Source of the DNA: Candidatus Poribacteria bacterium
Lineage (GTDB): Bacteria; Poribacteria; WGA-4E; PCPOR2b
Direction of reading: 5' to 3'
DNA: 64,000 bases
Assembly (NCBI GenBank): GCA_965215015.1
Contig: OZ244042.1
Span: 3,392,001 to 3,456,000 of the forward strand
This document shows, in pieces, positions 2,474 through 64,000 of the stretch. The position numbers and the translations under genes were made by a program. Each line of letters begins with the position of its first letter. Position 1 is the stretch's first letter. The notes below the pieces were generated by a model, which had not been told where the DNA came from, searched no databases, and worked only from the letters and a program-made list of their open reading frames with translations.

Positions 2474-4561
2474 TCACCATATAAACCGATACATCGGCTT
2501 TTCTATCAACACACCAATCAACGCCCACACGCCGCCGACGAGAAATTCGCCGAGTATCAATCCGAGAAAGAACGGTGCTAGACTGCGAAACGTCTTTAAG
2601 CCGCCAAAGCGTAGGATACACCACTTAATCACCCAACTGATGAACACCGAAAACCAGAAGAAATTGACCGCCCATGTGCCGGAGATGCCGTATCCGACGG
2701 GATATAAGGGCCACCAAATAAAACGGGTGCGTACGGCGGTAAGTAAGAAGGTGAAGGCGACTCCGAAGCCCATTGCCAAGATTGACAGAACATCGACAGA
2801 TGCCGGATTGGTAAGCCAACTTTGGGTGCGTCGAAAGATGGACCCATACCAAACCTCCCATGCGCCGGATTTGTAACCGATGTGCAGCGAAAACCAGAAC
2901 GAAGCCAATGGGCTAAGAACGACTGTAAGCAGTATGGCGTATCCGACTCGACGTGACGACACCCCCGCACGCTCTGCGAGTTTCAGTGCTTCTAGCTGGT
3001 GCGGCATGGCATTGCCCCGATAGGCGCGATTAAAGCAATACACAAGCGAGAACAGGGTGAGACTTCTTGCCCCTAGGCGTCGCATACCGAACATCTTTGG
3101 GAGTAGCACATCGGGGCCCATCGCACGTAGGTCGTGGATGGGTGGTCCTAATTCCGCACGGATGCGAGTGATAACGGTTACCGTTGTGAAGTGGATGACG
3201 AAAACGAGAACGGCAACCCAGAGGGGTAGACCTGCTACCGCCCAAAAACCGACCAATAGCATGAAGCCGATGATCAGTCCGAGTACAGCCGTGCGATAGG
3301 AGATTGGTTCGTTAGCTTCTATGTATCGGCTTGACGGGTCCCCCTGTTCCGATTCCGTACTCTGGGAACTAGGAGGCCTATGAGGAGAACCTCCCCGCCA
3401 TGCGGTCACGAGTACGGTTCGCAAATGACGGCGCGCTCCCCACAGTGTAAGAATCAGTACGCCAACACAAACGCCGAATGACTGATCAAAGATAAAGGGA
3501 AAACCGGGTATCTGCTGAAACCCGAAGATGCTCCCCATAATCATTTCAAATTTCCAGAATACGTAGAAGAACCAGAAGGTGAAGGAGAGATCGAGGGGTA
3601 TAAAATATCCCATTCCAATGGCGAAAGGGAAAACAACGACCGGCGTCCAACCGATAGCATTCCACGGTTTGGTGGTAAAAAATGGGCGCAGGTCAAAGAA
3701 TTCGCCACCGAGTCCGGGAATAATAGGAAATAAAAAGTGCAGTCCATTGATAAGATCCATGCCGCCGGCGAGAATAAGCCCCGCCCACATTAATCGATTC
3801 CGAAAAAAGTCCGTTGTGGTTATTTGCTGCGGGAGCTCGATAATTGGATAGCTCAGTCGCTCTGCTTCAATCCACTGTTTTCGCAGGATGGCGTTGATGC
3901 AGAAAGCGGTGAAGAGGAGAACGATGATAAACCCAGACCACGCCAGGACGGGTTGCCACCATAGCTGAAGATTTTCAGGGAGGTAAAGGCTGGATTCCCC
4001 AACGAAATAGGGCGTAATGCTTTTTTTATCGGTCAATGCTAACCAATCGGGGAGGTAGTGGTGAAACAGTGTGGCCCATTCGTTTTCCTCATTTGACATC
4101 CAGCCAACGACCGCGATATTGGTGACAACAACTTGGAACAGGTCATGCCCGCCGATTGCGGAGGCGACGGAGAGCATTGCATAGAGCGTCAATAATTCGC
4201 CTTGTGTCAATGCTAAGTGTGGCGAAAACCGAGTCAGCCAAAAGTTCACTACCACCACAAACACGAAAATGAAAATCACATTGAAAAAGAGCGACATGGT
4301 CGTTGGGAGACCTTGTTCCCACCGCAACATCGCAAATAGCCAGTAGTTGTTGATAAGGATGAGTCCTAGACCGAGCCAGATTGTACTCCAACGAATCTGT
4401 GGTTGTTGGGATTGGGGTGTCGAATATTTGGCTTGGGGGTTCAATGCGATTTCTCTTGGACTTATATTAGTTCTCGTGGGTGGGTTTCTCTCGGAGACAG
4501 AAACCTCTTGAGAATACGTTCCTTGTGGATTATAATATCCGATGTAATCAGTGAGTAACAC
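2474..4561 (-). CDS. Large polytopic membrane protein (DUF6785/DUF6784-type putative peptide transporter)
   Basis: About 15 TM segments; motifs LRKQWIEAERLSYPI, TRIRAELGPP, WWPLYPVGY, PFFLGLILGE. Start uncertain. Confidence 0.75.
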   Translation of the reverse strand: MLLTDYIGYYNPQGTYSQEVSVSERNPPTRTNISPREIALNPQAKYSTPQSQQPQIRWSTIWLGLGLILINNYWLFAMLRWEQGLPTTMSLFFNVIFIFVFVVVVNFWLTRFSPHLALTQGELLTLYAMLSVASAIGGHDLFQVVVTNIAVVGWMSNEENEWATLFHHYLPDWLALTDKKSITPYFVGESSLYLPENLQLWWQPVLAWSGFIIVLLFTAFCINAILRKQWIEAERLSYPIIELPQQITTTDFFRNRLMWAGLILAGGMDLINGLHFLFPIIPGLGGEFFDLRPFFTTKPWNAIGWTPVVVFPFAIGMGYFIPLDLSFTFWFFYVFWKFEMIMGSIFGFQQIPGFPFIFDQSFGVCVGVLILTLWGARRHLRTVLVTAWRGGSPHRPPSSQSTESEQGDPSSRYIEANEPISYRTAVLGLIIGFMLLVGFWAVAGLPLWVAVLVFVIHFTTVTVITRIRAELGPPIHDLRAMGPDVLLPKMFGMRRLGARSLTLFSLVYCFNRAYRGNAMPHQLEALKLAERAGVSSRRVGYAILLTVVLSPLASFWFSLHIGYKSGAWEVWYGSIFRRTQSWLTNPASVDVLSILAMGFGVAFTFLLTAVRTRFIWWPLYPVGYGISGTWAVNFFWFSVFISWVIKWCILRFGGLKTFRSLAPFFLGLILGEFLVGGVWALIGVLIEKPMYRFIW

Positions 4562-59788: not shown

Positions 59789-60523
59789 TCACTGTATCGT
59801 TAGCGGCATGACGTTGGACTCAAGCGTTGCTGAACCCCGGTAGGAATCCAATAGAAGATAGGGTCCGTCCTGTTTTCTTGCCTCTTCGTGCTCCAAGCCT
59901 TCAATCTCTCTCTCCAAATTGTGAATCACCCGTTCCTTCATGTCGTCAGGTATGCTAGCGTTTGCTTGTACTATCCGAATTTCGTTCTTTATCTCCTGCA
60001 CCTCTGGCAATTCGGGCGAAAAGATCTCCCGATAGACTTTCAACTCTATAAGTACTTGCAATGTATAGTCTCCCGGTCCTAGTTTGTAATAGGTCCACAA
60101 GTTTTTCAATATTGCCTGCCTTGTTTCCCCTGCCTTGAGTTCGGTTCCTTGGATACAACTTGTCACCTTGTCTTTCCACATCACGGTTTTGGTTTTCGCT
60201 GGGAATGTGATCGGCGGTTTGGGGGCGATAACCTGCCCCAGATTATTTTTGACCACCAATTTCGTGAATGCTCCCCTGGTTGCAACGGTGGCATATGGTA
60301 CAAGTAGATCAAACTTCCCCACCTGAATCGTTATTTCAAGGGGAACTGGTTCGTTAAATGTGTAATTCGGTTTCACCGATGATAAATGAAGCTCTGCAAG
60401 GGAGGCCGGGGTCGCTGCTGCTTCCGGAGCAGGATTGATTTCGGTCTTTCCTGTTGTACCACTCAGGCAGCCAGTGGTATAGAGACTCCATAGGGTTAGG
60501 CATATTAGAAGTCGGGTTGTCAT
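59789..60523 (-). CDS. Hypothetical lipoprotein
   Basis: AGGAG RBS; signal peptide with TTGC lipobox. Confidence 0.7.
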   Translation of the reverse strand: MTTRLLICLTLWSLYTTGCLSGTTGKTEINPAPEAAATPASLAELHLSSVKPNYTFNEPVPLEITIQVGKFDLLVPYATVATRGAFTKLVVKNNLGQVIAPKPPITFPAKTKTVMWKDKVTSCIQGTELKAGETRQAILKNLWTYYKLGPGDYTLQVLIELKVYREIFSPELPEVQEIKNEIRIVQANASIPDDMKERVIHNLEREIEGLEHEEARKQDGPYLLLDSYRGSATLESNVMPLTIQ

Positions 60524-60817
60524 GGTGTTCTCCTGTTAGTTTGGATGAGAAGAAAAACATCCACAAATCTACGCGAATTTTCGCTAATAGAATTTTTCAG
60601 CCCCCTTTTCATCGGGTCAATGGTTGTAACTGCGGGACGGTTTTCCGAAGGATATACCCGAAATTGTCCTTTCAGTCCCCTTTTCATTGGGTCAATGGTT
60701 GTAACTACAGGCGAGCGTGCTGCGATTAATTACTGGATGAACTTTCAGTCCCCTTTTCATCGGGTCAATGATTGTAACTTGGCGAGTTTGGGTTGACGGC
60801 ACTCGCCAGCCGTAAGA

Positions 60818-61252
60818 TTATTCTTCTATGAAAAAGATATCGGGGTTGACTTTGAGAAAATCACAGATTTTGAGAAAATCCTCAATCTTGATTGTCTCTG
60901 GCGTTTTCATTTTGAAGGACATTGCTGCCTTCGTTAGCCCGATGTGTCGCCCGACCTCAATCTGCTTCCGCGCTTGGACAGCCTCGCGAAAAACGTTTGT
61001 ATCAAGTTTCATTCCGCACCTCGCCTGTGGCGCTGCATTTTCGGGCGTGCCGTCGCCGGATGCGATAAAGCGATCGGGGTTAGCGTTGATAAAATCACAG
61101 ATTTTGAGAAAAACCCCGACCTTGATTTTTTCGGGCGTCCTCATTTTAAAGGACATCGATTCTGGAGTTAGCCCGATATGTCGCGCAACTTCGTACAGCT
61201 TCCGCGGCGACTTCTTGACTGCCCCGCGAAAGCTGGCGGTATCCAGCTTCAT
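60818..61252 (-). CDS. Tandem helix-turn-helix protein (two Cro/XRE-like domains) encoded inside the CRISPR array
   Basis: AGGAGGT RBS; two repeats MKLDT..EV.RHIGLT...MSFKM.TPE.IK...FLKICDF...NPD.F. Confidence 0.82.
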   Translation of the reverse strand: MKLDTASFRGAVKKSPRKLYEVARHIGLTPESMSFKMRTPEKIKVGVFLKICDFINANPDRFIASGDGTPENAAPQARCGMKLDTNVFREAVQARKQIEVGRHIGLTKAAMSFKMKTPETIKIEDFLKICDFLKVNPDIFFIEE

Positions 61253-61509
61253 TCTGCACCTCCTGTGAGCCCGGCCTCCGACAGGAGGTCGGCGAAATGG
61301 GAACTCGGCGGTGGGGGTTCAGGAATGTCAACAGGGTCGTTTCCCTCCACCAGACCGAGGGCGACTAAAATGCTGCCCTTCTCCCGTTCAACGCCGTCTA
61401 CGAAGAGATACAGTTCGCTCGAACGGCGCTTGTATGTCCATTCCCTAAGAATGGCCTGCGGCCCAAGGGCATGGATTGTGGCGCACCCCCCGGATTGCAG
61501 CTCTAACAC
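61249..61509 (-). CDS. Small ORF (86 aa, possibly the 3' part of a phage gene) inside the CRISPR array
   Basis: GTG starts 1 nt after the repeat; its stop overlaps the HTH start (ATGA). Confidence 0.55.
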   Translation of the reverse strand: MLELQSGGCATIHALGPQAILREWTYKRRSSELYLFVDGVEREKGSILVALGLVEGNDPVDIPEPPPPSSHFADLLSEAGLTGGAE

Positions 61510-63232
61510 GCTTTCAGTCCCCTTTTCATCGGGTCAATGGTTGTAACTAGGCAAAATACTCACTATCAACTTTATCCATTACCTCTTTCAGTCCCCTTTT
61601 CATCGGGTCAATGGTTGTAACAACACGACGGATGGGATCACAACAGTCCAAACAGGACTTTCAGTCCCCTTTTCATCGGGTCAATGGTTGTAACATCGAA
61701 CGCAAGATACGAGAGATCTTTGAAAGCGAACTTTCAGTCCCCTTTTCATCGGGTCAATGGTTGTAACTTCTGCGATACAATCGTTGCAGGGCGACGTTTC
61801 GGCTTTCAGTCCCCTTTTCATCGGGTCAATGGTTGTAACTTATCGAATGCGGGTTACGCGGGGACTCAGGTGGCGTCTTTCAGTCCCCTTTTCATCGGGT
61901 CAATGGTTGTAACTCGGAGACTGGGAATGGAAGTACAACACTGAATGTAGCGCTTTCAGTCCCCTTTTCATCGGGTCAATGGTTGTAACTGGGTTCTGGG
62001 GGAGAGAATGGATGTTGACGAGCTGTCTTTCAGTCCCCTTTTCATCGGGTCAATGGTTGTAACTAATGCAGCTACGATTGATCAAGGTGGTCAATCGTAT
62101 CTTTCAGTCCCCTTTTCATCGGGTCAATGGTTGTAACTAAAAGTCCAAGGCTTCACGGACGAAGAACGGGCGCCTTTCAGTCCCCTTTTCATCGGGTCAA
62201 TGGTTGTAACACAAACCAGTCCACGAAATAGACGCCATCGCCTGCTTTCAGTCCCCTTTTCATCGGGTCAATGGTTGTAACCAAACGCCGAGCGTCGGGG
62301 CAATCGCATCCGCTTGTCCTTTCAGTCCCCTTTTCATCGGGTCAATGGTTGTAACTCGCTTGACGACGGTTCATACGACCATCCGCCCACGCTTTCAGTC
62401 CCCTTTTCATCGGGTCAATGGTTGTAACGTTTTCGACCCTCGCTTACCACCCCGAGCCGTCAAGCTTTCAGTCCCCTTTTCATCGGGTCAATGGTTGTAA
62501 CCATCTCAAATCTCCTTTTGCCCTTGAGGGCGATTGTGCTTTCAGTCCCCTTTTCATCGGGTCAATGGTTGTAACCTTGAACCACCGACGGAGGTGAGAC
62601 GGCGGAGCGTGCTTTCAGTCCCCTTTTCATCGGGTCAATGGTTGTAACTGGGGAGGACGAGGACAGCGTCCTCAAGGCCGTCACTTTCAGTCCCCTTTTC
62701 ATCGGGTCAATGGTTGTAACTGAAAATTGCACTGGTATGCGACGCCCGAAAAGATCTTTCAGTCCCCTTTTCATCGGGTCAATGGTTGTAACATAGCAGC
62801 GTGAATCAGATCAGACAAAGTCGTCCTCTCTTTCAGTCCCCTTTTCATCGGGTCAATGGTTGTAACTGCTAGGCAACGAGTTCATCGCCAAGAAGTCCGG
62901 GACTTTCAGTCCCCTTTTCATCGGGTCAATGGTTGTAACTAACTTTCATTGCTGTTCTCCGTTCCTCTTAAAAGCTTTCAGTCCCCTTTTCATCGGGTCA
63001 ATGGTTGTAACCTGGAGAGCAAGAGTGTCTCGGAAACGGGTGAAGCGCTTTCAGTCCCCTTTTCATCGGGTCAATGGTTGTAACTGTTGATGAACTTGAC
63101 GGCAAACGCCCGTACATCGTCTTTCAGTCCCCTTTTCATCGGGTCAATGGTTGTAACTTCTATCAGTGCAGCCTTTTGGGCTTGGATAATAGAGACTTTC
63201 AGTCCCCTTTTCATCGGGTCAATGGTTGTAAC

Positions 63233-63345
63233 CGATTACGGGCAGCACCCATGGATCACTCCAGAACGCATGAAATATCTGTATTTGTGAAGTATATTCT
63301 CTATCATCACATGAAACGCCTCCACATTCAAGTAAAAAGTGTATA
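63233..63345 (-). promoter_or_regulatory. CRISPR leader (boundaries approximate)
   Basis: AT-richer non-coding stretch next to the non-degenerate array end, downstream of cas4. Confidence 0.6.
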
Positions 63346-63502
63346 TCTCCAGCGCGGCTTGTGTTCATCGCCATCCGTGGGGGTATGCCTGTCGCTTTCG
63401 CAAATCCCTTTTCTGTGGTTTTGTCCGTCCATTCGATCGTGGAGATCAGGGGGAGTCGGTCGCAAATCCGTCTCCCTGCTCATTGTAGCAATGGTTGAAA
63501 TA

Positions 63503-63530
63503 CGGGCAAGCACAAGGCTTGCCCCTACGG
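63503..63530 (-). repeat. GTAG-family REP-like palindrome between cas4 and the leader
   Basis: Minus strand CCGTAGGGGCAAGCCTTGTGCTTGCCCG. Confidence 0.65.
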
Positions 63531-63675
63531 AGGACATTAATCCCTTTTGTGTTGGATGGCGGTTGGAACGCTTTACGGGTAGATTTGATACGAAATCAGG
63601 AACGCGGATCTACGTTCTCTATTTTTTTTCGCAAATCGCCCTATCTTTTCCTCAGAAACTCAATTTGCGATTTCT

Positions 63676-63999
63676 TCACAACACATCGGCACAGAATCGA
63701 CGAAATTCGCACTCGACGCATTTTCCGCGCTGTGGTGTCGGTGGGGGCATCCGTTCGTCTGAGAGTATACTCCTTATCTGCTGGATGGCGTGACGGGTCT
63801 TGCGCCGAAGTGTCTCTGAAATTGGAACTGCTGTGATGCGCTGTGTGGGGATTCGATAGATAAACCCTTGAGACACTAATTGACCGAGACATTCCTCCAC
63901 CATCAGCGCGTAGGCTGTCAACTGGTATTTCGCGTTCAGGTTGAGCCTCTGGGTTGTGGATTTAAACTCGACTGGGAATGCTTCATCTTTGGTCTGGAT
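63676..63999 (-). CDS. cas4: CRISPR-associated exonuclease Cas4 (5'-truncated by the window edge)
   Basis: The frame is open to the edge: FPVEFKS..KYQLTAYALMVEE..KCVECEFRRFC (RecB EXK, QxxxY, C-terminal Cys cluster), next to the array. Confidence 0.93.
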   Translation of the reverse strand: MQTKDEAFPVEFKSTTQRLNLNAKYQLTAYALMVEECLGQLVSQGFIYRIPTQRITAVPISETLRRKTRHAIQQIRSILSDERMPPPTPQRGKCVECEFRRFCADVL

Positions 64000-64000
64000 G

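What the first reader, a model, noticed from the sequence alone, without database searches (positions are those of the whole stretch)
60779..61510. 732-bp giant CRISPR spacer carrying an intact, translatable HTH regulator gene
Seen: between two full repeats (60742-60778 and 61511-61547) lies 732 bp instead of 34-39 bp. It holds two ORFs coupled by an ATGA overlap: 86 aa, and a 144-aa tandem Cro/XRE-like HTH protein with an AGGAGGT RBS. Both are on the minus strand, in the same sense as the predicted pre-crRNA. I see no transposase, terminal inverted repeats or target duplication, and both flanking repeats are full length. It sits at the old end of the array with 23 newer spacers on the leader side, yet the HTH frame is unbroken. 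Inference: a phage- or plasmid-derived gene block captured as an oversized spacer and expressed from the CRISPR leader, released by repeat cleavage as a roughly 770-nt mRNA. The array would then act as a gene-capture and expression cassette, giving for example repressor-type immunity, cas autoregulation or an Aca-like hijack.
Basis: partly seen in the sequence, partly recalled or inferred. Interest (0 to 1): 0.92.

Follow-up and report, generated by a model that had tools for sequence, protein, structure and literature searches.

The report
Foreign gene fragment inside CRISPR array
One slot of a bacterial CRISPR array holds, instead of a normal 36-base spacer, a 732-base piece of foreign DNA carrying half of one gene and a whole phage-type repressor gene; how it got there and whether it is used are open, and similar oddities sit at the old end of related arrays.

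Summary
One type I CRISPR array has 27 repeats of 37 nt at 60594-63233 and is transcribed on the minus strand from a cas6-cas3-cas7-cas1-cas2-cas4 operon. Its third unit from the old end is 732 bp, flush between two full repeats. Public reads support both junctions, and the block sits at single-copy depth.

One correction: the "86-aa ORF" is not a gene. It is the C-terminal 78 residues of a ~180-aa protein, cut off at the repeat. Its family was found in none of 175 other genomes of the phylum. The fragment has 59% GC against 49% for the genome. The 144-aa gene is intact. It encodes two Cro/CI-type HTH domains joined by a linker, and it has one 75%-identical 144-aa homologue.

So the block is a fragment of a foreign two-gene operon, not an ordinary spacer, an IS element or a native locus. 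How it was captured is unresolved. Candidates are array-element recombination, an oversized Cas1-Cas2 integration, or a trimmed larger insertion.

Expression could not be tested. No internal promoter-like site was found, and the gene has a strong Shine-Dalgarno (SD) site.

Oversized units also sit at the old ends of arrays in G003, G005 (IS elements), G021 and G022 (an intact gene). Interest is moderate.

The parts
60594..63233 (-). CRISPR array: 27 repeats of 37 nt and 26 units, old end at low coordinates
   Evidence: Weak Rfam CRISPR-DR32 match on the minus strand (28.3 bits, below the gathering score of 48).
60594..60778 (-). Three oldest repeats (60594-60630, 60669-60705, 60742-60778; 2, 1 and 1 mismatches) with two normal spacers of 38 and 36 nt
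60779..61510 (-). 732-bp oversized unit: a fragment of a foreign two-gene operon, flush between full repeats
60780..60808 (-). 8-bp inverted repeat (TGGCGAGT-13 nt-ACTCGCCA) in the 39-nt tail after the HTH stop codon. It is terminator- or operator-like and unique in the genome.
   Evidence: The 89-nt stretch that contains it folds at -20.7 kcal/mol, z -1.78, 8 of 200 shuffles fold as well. One occurrence in the genome.
60818..61252 (-). Intact 144-aa gene: two Cro/CI-type HTH domains (about residues 1-65 and 80-144) joined by a disordered linker
61258..61264 (-). Shine-Dalgarno AGGAGGT, 5 nt before the ATG of the HTH gene
   Evidence: read
61249..61509 (-). 5'-truncated gene fragment (the '86-aa ORF'): equals residues 103-180 of the 180-aa homologue P0011. 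Its stop codon overlaps the HTH start (ATGA).
   Evidence: 59.4% GC.
61511..61547 (-). Exact-consensus repeat on the leader side of the oversized unit
63234..63675 (-). Leader region, with a promoter-like site TTGCCC-16-TACAAT (TG-extended) at 63509-63482
   Evidence: a consensus match only
63676..64000 (-). 3' part of cas4, the last gene of the minus-strand cas operon, which continues past the window end

Best explanation
The 732 bp are a fragment of a foreign, most likely phage- or plasmid-borne, two-gene operon. The operon is a ~180-aa gene of unknown function, translationally coupled through an ATGA overlap to a tandem Cro/CI-type HTH repressor.

The fragment became lodged between two repeats of a type I CRISPR array by a non-canonical event. 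The route I think most likely is recombination between the array and an invading element. The homology could have come from the repeat, or from two neighbouring spacers that matched the element about 0.7 kb apart. Either way the ends of the fragment would fall at arbitrary places in the donor, here in the middle of a gene. That step is inferred, not shown. The array then gained 23 more spacers at the leader end.

The first gene is dead: its promoter, start and about 100 codons are missing. The HTH gene is whole. It has a strong ribosome-binding site and no recognisable promoter of its own. If it is expressed, that would be by read-through of the pre-crRNA from the leader promoter, and Cas6 cuts in the flanking repeats would release an RNA of about 770 nt. 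That too is inferred.

The default reading is a tolerated passenger at the little-used old end of the array, where related arrays also collect non-spacer DNA. A host function for the HTH is possible but has no evidence.
For: Real and single copy. Both junctions and the depth are supported by reads.

One array, not two.
- The repeat on the leader side of the block is exact consensus. Mismatches rise only towards the far end (1, 1, 2).
- There is no second array with this repeat in the genome.

Fragment of a larger operon.
- The ORF86 frame runs open into the repeat.
- It aligns to residues 103-180 of the 180-aa P0011: 45 of 78 identical, pairwise E 8e-32, database E 3.3e-19.

Foreign.
- The P0011 family matched only G000 among 176 genomes of the phylum.
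- There is no paralogue of either ORF in the genome.
- ORF86 GC is 59.4% against 49.3% for the genome, with 1.06% of windows as high.

The HTH is a real, rare gene family.
- A 144-aa homologue is 75% identical over 100% of the length.
- 8 proteins reached E<=1e-3 among 1.84 billion representatives: the query itself, one 1154-aa repetitive protein that I regard as spurious, and six proteins of 65-186 aa, four of them 65-68-aa single-unit proteins.
- The profile matched 10 of 176 phylum genomes, G000 included.
- The AF2 model has mean pLDDT 79 and shows two helical domains plus a linker.
- The best PDB fold matches are P22 c2 repressor, TP901-1 CI/MOR, HipB and SinR, with TM 0.6-0.7 per domain. 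Viral matches are named HTH or CI repressor.
- A single-unit relative lies next to an HK97-type capsid gene on G014 contig C2.

Not an IS. No transposase, no terminal inverted repeats and no hidden repeat were found.

No minus-strand promoter-like site lies inside the block. There is one in the leader.

Precedent for arrays exchanging DNA with phages. The prophage PhiAP1.1 integrates into CRISPR repeats, ends up flanked by them, and moves spacers (bioRxiv 10.1101/2020.10.09.333658; abstract and passages read).

Relatives. Oversized units without a full-length repeat (G003's holds a half repeat) lie within the last 5 repeats of the old end in G003, G005, G021 and G022.
Against: The capture route is not demonstrated.
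- No donor sequence could be recovered, so no protospacer ends, PAM or att core can be examined.
- Recombination on 36-37 bp of homology is inefficient.
- The flush, full-length repeats on both sides are just what Cas1-Cas2 integration with repeat duplication would give.
- The base after the repeat is T, as in 17 of 27 repeats.

Expression is untested. No RNA run was available.

Two promoter-like sites lie on the opposite strand inside the block, at 60793-60821 and 60852-60879.

That the HTH frame is intact says little. The time since capture is unknown and may be short.

The relatives' interruptions are heterogeneous and share no sequence: IS elements, a copy of part of the cas locus, an intact paralogue. 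They need not share a mechanism with this one.
Confidence: 0.5

Rival explanations
1. Oversized prespacer. Cas1-Cas2(-Cas4) integrated a 732-bp DNA fragment at the leader-proximal repeat, duplicating the repeat as for any spacer. 23 later acquisitions then pushed it towards the old end.
For: - Full-length repeats lie flush on both sides.
- The block's ends fall at arbitrary donor positions, one of them in mid-gene.
- Its internal position fits polar growth of the array.
- Its first base after the repeat is T, as in 17 of 27 repeats.
- The cas1, cas2 and cas4 genes next to the array match their families over nearly the full model length.
- In 4 of the 10 same-genus genomes aligned at that site (a repeat-spanning match in 4 of 20 searched), a repeat-bearing segment of roughly 50 nt by my alignment, longer than any spacer here, lies at a non-CRISPR site between direct duplications. 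This might be ectopic integration.
Against: - The 25 normal spacers are 34-39 nt, as expected from a ruler mechanism (established knowledge of Cas1-Cas2, recalled).
- I found no paper that describes spacers of hundreds of bases. The searches 'unusually long spacer' and 'oversized spacer' each returned 0 papers.
- The PAM cannot be checked without the donor.
Confidence: 0.2
2. Trimmed remnant. A larger element, either a prophage or integrative element that used the repeat as its attachment site or DNA inserted into a spacer, was later cut down by deletion or aberrant excision to 732 bp.
For: - Prophage integration into CRISPR repeats, with aberrant excision that removes or moves repeat-spacer units, is documented.
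- Repressor-type HTH genes are typical of temperate elements.
- Homology to P0011 cannot be traced into the last 9 nt or so next to the repeat, and the other end has a 39-nt non-coding tail. Spacer remnants totalling about one spacer are therefore not excluded.
- G005 shows that mobile DNA (two IS elements) does land in these arrays.
Against: - No integrase, transposase or structural-gene remnant was found.
- The 39-nt tail holds an 8-bp inverted repeat, which is unlikely in a random spacer.
- The reading needs a deletion end point within a few bases of a repeat.
Confidence: 0.17
3. Two separate arrays flank an ordinary chromosomal locus. The three low-coordinate repeats would be an independent mini-array.
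For: - In G003 the interruption is partly a 96%-identical copy of the native WYL/WCX regulator gene of the cas locus.
- In G022 the embedded gene is a paralogue of a chromosomal gene.
- Orphan repeats exist elsewhere in this genome.
Against: - The truncated gene's family matched in none of 175 other genomes of the phylum. The HTH protein itself matched 1 of 40 relatives, on a capsid-bearing contig; the HTH profile matched 9 other genomes of the 176-genome phylum set.
- The gene is cut at the repeat.
- The repeat next to it is exact consensus, not a degenerate terminal repeat.
- ORF86 GC is atypical for the genome.
Confidence: 0.05
4. Misassembly that joins unrelated DNA through the repeats.
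For: Repeats are classic assembly traps.
Against: - An independent unitig runs from repeat to repeat at the same depth as the flank (X1).
- Contigs from two other studies cross the left junction with 0 mismatches.
- No alternative joint was reported (all).
- The right junction is covered only in X1, 29 nt into the repeat.
Confidence: 0.02

Closest known systems
Canonical CRISPR spacer (Cas1-Cas2 product)
   Same: It lies flush between two full direct repeats, in register with the array. It is of foreign origin. It sits at an internal position that fits polar growth.
   Different: It is 732 bp against 34-39 bp for the other 25 units. It carries a whole gene with a ribosome-binding site. The PAM cannot be tested.
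Prophage integration into CRISPR repeats (PhiAP1.1 in Streptococcus pyogenes type II-A; bioRxiv 10.1101/2020.10.09.333658, abstract and passages read)
   Same: Foreign DNA is bounded by CRISPR repeats inside or at the end of an array. A phage-type regulator is present.
   Different: There is no integrase and no phage body, only 0.73 kb instead of about 40 kb. One end cuts a gene. The system is type I.
IS or transposon insertion into an array (seen here in G005: two DDE transposase elements)
   Same: It interrupts an array near the old end.
   Different: No transposase, terminal inverted repeats or target duplication were found. The insert is in sense with the array.
Spacer-guided recombination between phages and CRISPR loci (Varble et al. 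2019, staphylococci; recalled. I saw only the phrase 'recombination between phages' counted once in each of the papers listed.)
   Same: It would explain phage DNA joined to an array exactly at spacer or repeat boundaries.
   Different: That work described hybrid phage-CRISPR molecules and transduction. It did not describe a stable gene-sized unit inside an array.
Operons of a small gene plus an HTH gene on mobile elements (acr-aca, toxin-antitoxin, phage immunity modules)
   Same: It is a two-gene operon with a 4-nt overlap and an XRE/Cro-type HTH as the second gene. One family member in G047 is itself followed by an overlapping 86-aa ORF.
   Different: No known Acr, Aca, toxin or antitoxin family was matched. 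HipB matched only weakly (E 0.0018 in NCBIfam, 0.006 in the PDB search). Aca11 came only at rank 43 by fold. The G047 partner had no Pfam hit. The tandem double HTH is unusual.
Integron gene cassettes (analogy only, recalled)
   Same: Genes sit between short repeated recombination sites, co-oriented behind one promoter.
   Different: No integron integrase or attC was found. The repeats are CRISPR repeats. Only one to three such units occur per array.

Membership tests
Type I CRISPR-Cas locus with array | cas3 helicase-nuclease, cas7, cas6 and the adaptation genes cas1, cas2 and cas4 next to a repeat-spacer array | tested here: met
   NCBIfam and Pfam hits on L009: cas3_core 1.5e-57, DevR/Cas7 6.9e-28, Cas6 8.4e-18, cas1 1.8e-69, cas2 1.7e-13, cas4 2.7e-37. 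The subtype was not settled. The 601-aa and 236-aa ORFs had no family hit.
Canonical spacer | Flanked by full repeats, in register | tested here: met
Canonical spacer | Length within the array's narrow range | tested here: not met
   732 nt against 34-39 nt for the other 25 units
Canonical spacer | Protospacer in a foreign element next to the system's PAM | not testable with these tools
   No donor DNA was found in the viral, metagenome or genome collections. No protospacer for any spacer was found in 28 family genomes, so the PAM is unknown.
IS element / transposon | Transposase gene | tested here: not met
   No transposase family in Pfam, NCBIfam or PHROGs
IS element / transposon | Terminal inverted repeats and target-site duplication | tested here: not met
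   No inverted repeat joins the two ends. The only flanking direct repeat is the CRISPR repeat itself.
Prophage integrated in a CRISPR repeat | Integrase and phage genes between repeat-derived attL and attR | tested here: not met
   Only two ORFs, and none is an integrase. The repeat flanks are present.
XRE / Cro-C1 HTH (Pfam HTH_26) | Profile match above the curated cut-off | tested here: met
   32 bits against 22, E 1.5e-7, two stretches
XRE / Cro-C1 HTH (Pfam HTH_26) | Helical lambda-repressor-like fold | tested here: met
   AF2 pLDDT 79. P22 c2 TM 0.68 per domain with probability 1.00, although no PDB hit reached E<=0.001 (0 of 473). 3 BFVD hits reached E<=0.001.
acr-aca operon | HTH belongs to a known Aca family; upstream gene inhibits a Cas effector | tested here: inconclusive
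   There was no sequence match to an Aca chain in the PDB. Aca11 came at Foldseek rank 43, E 0.25. The upstream protein has no family, and its model was unusable at pLDDT 35.6. Activity cannot be tested here.
Type II toxin-antitoxin pair | Recognisable toxin family next to an HTH antitoxin | tested here: not met
   P0011/ORF86 had no hit in Pfam, PHROGs or PADLOC. The HTH gave only weak HipB-like hits.

The most novel reading that the evidence does not exclude
In this bacterial family CRISPR arrays double as a gene-capture and expression platform. Gene-sized DNA would be installed flush between repeats, either by the adaptation integrase or by repeat-directed recombination. It would be transcribed from the leader promoter and cut into single-gene mRNAs by Cas6, much like integron cassettes.

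The captured tandem HTH would then serve the host, for example as a repressor that silences the immunity or anti-CRISPR promoter of the phage it came from.

Hints that do not exclude this reading:
- G022 has consecutive repeat-flanked units, two of which carry a complete, RBS-preceded, co-oriented gene.
- The G022 embedded 619-aa gene is intact, while its paralogue elsewhere is split over at least two frames.
- The units in G003, G005_b and G021 also hold co-oriented ORFs.
Probability: 0.12. Interest if true: 0.9.

Novelty: new variant of a known kind. Interest (0 to 1): 0.52.

Why it matters
CRISPR arrays are thought to take up only short pieces of DNA of fixed length. A stable, read-supported unit twenty times that size shows that arrays can acquire and keep gene-sized foreign DNA. 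The unit is bounded exactly by repeats and carries an intact phage-type regulator in sense with the crRNA precursor.

If the route is Cas1-Cas2, it relaxes the ruler model. If it is spacer- or repeat-guided recombination, it is a natural trace of phage-array DNA exchange. If the gene is expressed, Cas6 would be processing an mRNA.

Even on the dull reading it matters for annotation. Array finders split or mis-score such loci, and an 'ORF' that starts at a repeat can be a truncated gene.

The family-wide pattern gives a concrete, testable system. Oversized units sit at the old ends of the arrays, and orphan repeats have been inserted upstream of a class-I aminoacyl-tRNA synthetase (aaRS) gene.

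Tried and rejected
Donor and context searches that found nothing useful:
- The search for related loci with the HTH protein in genome contigs and viral contigs.
- The same tool with alignment A1 in viral contigs; the tool judged the alignment too poorly conserved.
- P0011 and alignment A2 in viral contigs and metagenome contigs.
- A degenerate DNA pattern for GSILVALGLVE in metagenome contigs. It gave 1 hit, L030, which is an out-of-frame chance match inside another gene.
- The same pattern in viral contigs gave 0 hits.

Whether those homologues sit in phages, or next to repeats, is therefore unknown.

Function of the truncated gene:
- Pfam, NCBIfam, PHROGs and PADLOC gave nothing at the thresholds asked; the only PHROG line for P0011 was phrog_6231 at E 0.42, and NCBIfam was run on ORF86 only.
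- The AlphaFold model of P0011, built from a 2-row alignment, was unusable (pLDDT 35.6), so I did no fold search on it.
- The ESM Atlas gave no usable hit.

Expression: no RNA holder was listed for this stretch, and all four runs laid were contigs. Nothing can be said on transcription.

Operator hunt: the tail's inverted repeat is unique in the genome, and its half-sites do not cluster in the leader or cas region. This is a weak test, because the operon's own promoter region is missing.

PAM inference: a search of 28 other genomes of the family with the array DNA found only repeats, orphan repeats and mini-arrays, and no protospacer. Two spacers have partial matches in the own genome (28/37 and 30/36), too few to define a PAM.

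Literature:
- 'unusually long spacer' with 'CRISPR array': 0 papers.
- 'oversized spacer': 0 papers.
- 'interrupted array': 0 papers.
- 'within the CRISPR array' plus ORF plus inserted: 14 papers. The two I opened were irrelevant.
- The CRISPRDetect paper treats long 'spacers' as decayed repeats. I tested that here and rejected it.
- Supplements were not consulted.

Rejected ideas:
- An attP inside the truncated gene. The frame hits a stop 8 codons into the repeat, and P0011 has no repeat-like peptide.
- A RelE-type toxin partner in G047. That was my impression by eye, and Pfam gave no hit.
- Homology between G000's flanking 244-aa lipoprotein and G003's embedded lipoproteins. There is none.
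- A shared sequence among the oversized units of different genomes. There is none by blastn or tblastx.

G065's 239-bp unit may simply be decayed repeats (14/37 and 6/22 mismatches), so I dropped it from the count of oversized units.

For G002, G015 and G018 I relied only on genome-wide pattern hits with at most 3 mismatches. More diverged trailing repeats could have been missed there.


Full report
WHAT IS THERE

The window ends in a CRISPR array. It has 27 copies of a 37-nt repeat at 60594-63233, with start-to-start spacing of 71-76 nt. A search of the whole genome, one 5.94-Mb contig, found this repeat with up to 3 mismatches only here. 24 copies are exact. The three at the low-coordinate end carry 1, 1 and 2 mismatches.

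Just beyond the window, on the minus strand, lies a cas operon. In transcription order it holds:
- cas6 and cas3;
- a 601-aa ORF without a family hit;
- cas7;
- a 236-aa ORF without a hit;
- three unrelated ORFs: a 121-aa ORF without a family hit, a 141-aa ORF with collagen-like-adhesin hits, and a 177-aa nucleoside 2-deoxyribosyltransferase;
- cas1, cas2 and cas4.

cas4 ends at 63676, and a promoter-like site lies at 63509-63482. The array is therefore read on the minus strand. Its leader is at 63234-63675, and the degenerate repeats mark the old end.

Between the repeats at 60742-60778 and 61511-61547 lie 732 bp instead of the 34-39 nt of the other 25 units. Two older spacers lie beyond the block, and 23 newer ones lie towards the leader.

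IS IT REAL?

The 732 bp hold no decayed repeat. The best match to the repeat has 20 of 37 mismatches on either strand, within the 14-21 range seen in 300 random genome windows.

Public runs hold the stretch, and I laid four of them on it:
- In X1 a 799-nt unitig runs from repeat to repeat (60741-61539) at depth 358.5, equal to the chromosomal flank at 362.2.
- In X5 and X6, from two other studies, contigs cross the left junction without a mismatch (60618-60831 and 60748-60935).
- X8 holds inner parts of the block.
- No joint that skips the block was reported.
- The right junction is covered only in X1, 29 nt into the repeat.

X1 may be the sample the genome came from, so the independent support rests mainly on X5, X6 and X8. 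Misassembly is very unlikely.

WHAT THE BLOCK ENCODES

Both ORFs are on the minus strand.

The 144-aa ORF (60818-61252):
- It has AGGAGGT 5 nt before its ATG.
- It matches Pfam HTH_26 above the curated cut-off, in two stretches.
- Its two halves are 61% identical to each other, and at the DNA level a 143-nt stretch is 78% identical.
- The AlphaFold model has mean pLDDT 79. It shows two helical domains (about 1-65 and 80-144) and a disordered linker at 66-79.
- Foldseek ranks P22 c2 repressor, TP901-1 CI/MOR, VanU, HipB and SinR first in the PDB, with TM 0.6-0.7 per domain and probability about 1. None of the 473 matches reaches E<=0.001.
- In BFVD it ranks proteins named HTH or CI repressor first, with 3 at E<=0.001.

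The family is rare:
- Among 5.8 billion clustered proteins of similar length there is one homologue, P0002. It is also 144 aa, 75% identical over 100% of the query.
- A full HMMER scan of 1.84 billion representatives gave 8 proteins at E<=1e-3: the query itself, a 1154-aa repetitive protein that I consider spurious, and six proteins of 65-186 aa, four of them 65-68-aa single-unit proteins.
- A profile of the family matched 10 of 176 genomes of the phylum, G000 included. The contexts are mixed. One lies on a contig of G014 that ends at 40,275 bp, about 600 nt from an HK97-type major-capsid gene with two small ORFs between. One lies next to a DUF3987 protein. Three are fused to long repeat proteins. 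One in G047 is followed by an overlapping 86-aa ORF with no Pfam hit.

The '86-aa ORF' (61249-61509) is not a gene in its own right:
- Its GTG is one base from the repeat, and the frame stays open 8 codons into the repeat.
- It has no family hit and no homologue of similar length.
- A search among longer proteins found P0011, 180 aa. ORF86 aligns to its residues 103-180 with 45 of 78 identical and no gaps.

So about 100 N-terminal codons, the start and the promoter of this gene are missing, and the break coincides with the repeat junction.

The P0011 family matched in no other of the 176 genomes of the phylum. Neither ORF has a paralogue in the genome. The fragment's GC is 59.4% against 49.3% for the genome, and only 1.06% of 261-nt windows are as high. 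The HTH gene is average at 48.7%.

The stop codon of the fragment overlaps the HTH start (ATGA), so the two genes formed one operon. After the HTH stop come 39 nt that hold an 8-bp inverted repeat. It is unique in the genome. The 89-nt stretch containing it folds at -20.7 kcal/mol, z -1.78.

WHAT IT IS NOT

- It is not an IS. No transposase was found. No terminal inverted repeats were found. The only flanking duplication is the CRISPR repeat.
- It is not a prophage. It has two ORFs and no integrase.
- It is not a native locus between two arrays. The gene family is absent from the relatives searched, the gene is cut at the repeat, and the adjoining repeat is exact consensus rather than a degenerate terminal repeat.

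HOW IT MAY HAVE GOT THERE (INFERRED)

Three routes give a foreign fragment flush between full repeats.

(a) Recombination between the array and an invading element. The homology could be the repeat itself, since some elements carry repeat copies. It could also be two neighbouring spacers that match the element about 0.7 kb apart in the same orientation, which is what primed adaptation in type I systems tends to produce (recalled knowledge). A double crossover would replace the intervening repeat with the element's DNA, and the fragment's ends would be the old spacers. As a documented case of phage-array DNA exchange, a prophage integrates into CRISPR repeats and carries spacers with it on excision (bioRxiv 10.1101/2020.10.09.333658; abstract and passages read).

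(b) Integration of an oversized prespacer by Cas1-Cas2. This explains the flush repeats most simply. It also fits the T that follows 17 of 27 repeats, including this one. It conflicts with the tight 34-39-nt length control seen in the same array. I found no paper that reports spacers of this size.

(c) A larger insertion later trimmed. This is possible because up to about 9 nt at one end and 39 nt at the other are not shown to be donor-derived.

I could not recover donor DNA, so the choice among these routes rests on priors. I give (a) a modest lead.

WHAT IT MAY DO (INFERRED)

The block has no promoter-like site on the coding strand. The scan found 6 sites in 60400-63800 against 2.8 +/- 1.7 expected by chance. 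Two of them are antisense sites inside the block. The scan listed one terminator-like site on the minus strand between the leader and the block (62160-62143, 5-bp stem; a consensus match only).

If the pre-crRNA reaches the old end, the HTH gene is co-transcribed, and its strong SD site would allow translation. The operon includes cas6, so cuts in the flanking repeats would release an RNA of about 770 nt. None of this could be tested, because no RNA data were available. The intact frame is weak evidence for selection, since the age of the capture is unknown.

RELATIVES

The repeat family occurs in 10 of 41 relatives, G000 included. I inspected arrays in G002, G003, G004, G005, G011, G014, G015, G018, G021, G022 and G065.

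Oversized units without a full-length repeat (G003's holds a half repeat) lie within the last five repeats of the old end in four of these genomes:
- G003: a 2222-bp unit. A 5'-truncated WCX-domain regulator fragment abuts a repeat. It is a 96%-identical copy of the full gene upstream of cas6. The unit also holds a half repeat and two lipoprotein genes, and all are co-oriented with the array.
- G005: a 2121-bp unit with two DDE-transposase elements in antisense, which is an ordinary IS insertion. There is also a 367-bp unit with an 81-aa ORF.
- G021: a 432-bp unit.
- G022: three consecutive units. One is 213 bp. One is 1909 bp and holds a complete 619-aa LRR/GHL15/dockerin gene with an RBS, starting 40 nt after one repeat and ending 9 nt before the next. 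One is 233 bp and holds a complete 61-aa ORF, with AAGGAGG starting 6 nt after the repeat.

The 80%-identical paralogue of the G022 gene elsewhere in that genome is split over at least two frames, while the embedded copy is intact. The units share no sequence with each other.

So interruption of the old end is recurrent in this family but heterogeneous. It partly supports the dull reading, that junk is tolerated where crRNAs matter least. It also leaves room for the bold one, that genes are deliberately carried between repeats.

VERDICT

Foreign origin and the 'giant spacer' anatomy hold. Capture by the spacer machinery, expression and function are not shown.

This is a new variant of a known kind of event, foreign DNA lodged in a CRISPR array. 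It is unusual because it is flush with the repeats and carries an intact, sense-oriented phage-type regulator.

Noticed in passing
L031 4148-4184 (= G000:C1:3255148-3255184, outside the window): A solitary CRISPR-like repeat (4 mismatches) sits between a genus-wide conserved promoter (TTGACA-17-TACCAT) and a class-I aminoacyl-tRNA synthetase gene. It is flanked by a 42-45-nt direct duplication of the start of a short Ile-rich ORF, which I read as a leader peptide. A repeat is present at this site in G000, G014, G016 and G002. The six other genomes I aligned have an empty site, and the remaining genus matches were split around the repeat region. The duplicated segment ends in the same 9 nt (GACTGAAAG) as the repeat. 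It is seen at chromosome depth in run X1.
   Followed up: partly
L032 about 4190-4281 (= G000:C1:846245-846281, outside the window): Two partial repeat copies lie about 25 nt apart behind a promoter-like TTTGCA...TACACT. This may be a crRNA-like mini-array. Orphan repeats and two-repeat mini-arrays also turned up in many same-genus genomes.
   Followed up: no
L014 3037-5465 (G022): Three consecutive oversized units lie flush between repeats at the old end of a large array. Two hold complete, RBS-preceded, co-oriented genes of 619 aa and 61 aa. The 619-aa gene's 80%-identical paralogue elsewhere (L046) is broken into at least two frames.
   Followed up: partly
L013 2601-4822 (G003): A 2222-bp interruption of the array starts with a 5'-truncated WCX-domain regulator fragment that abuts a repeat. 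The fragment is a 96% copy of the gene upstream of cas6, about 14 kb away. A 'repeat, 21-nt spacer, repeat' motif is duplicated on both sides of the interruption.
   Followed up: partly
L049 4955-7075 (G005): Two DDE-transposase elements (DDE_Tnp_1 type and an HTH plus DDE_3 type) are inserted in antisense in the old end of the array.
   Followed up: yes
62282-62318 and 62867-62902: Spacers 14 and 22 have partial matches in the organism's own chromosome (28/37 at G000:C1:1348145-1348181; 30/36 at 1173754-1173789). These may be relatives of former targets, such as prophage remnants.
   Followed up: no
63474-63505: A 32-nt stretch in the leader is 72% identical to the 3' part of the + strand repeat and overlaps the promoter-like site. 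G014 has a comparable repeat-like match about 400 nt upstream of its first repeat.
   Followed up: no
L009 3575-5050 (window 66575-68050 equivalent, outside the window): Three ORFs sit inside the cas operon between the putative cas5 and cas1: a nucleoside 2-deoxyribosyltransferase (Pfam 6.9e-23), a collagen-repeat protein and a 121-aa ORF without a hit.
   Followed up: no
60594-63233: The base after the repeat on the + strand is T in 17 of 27 cases. That base is the last spacer base, A, in crRNA sense. Either the repeat is effectively 38 nt or prespacers are trimmed with a base preference.
   Followed up: no
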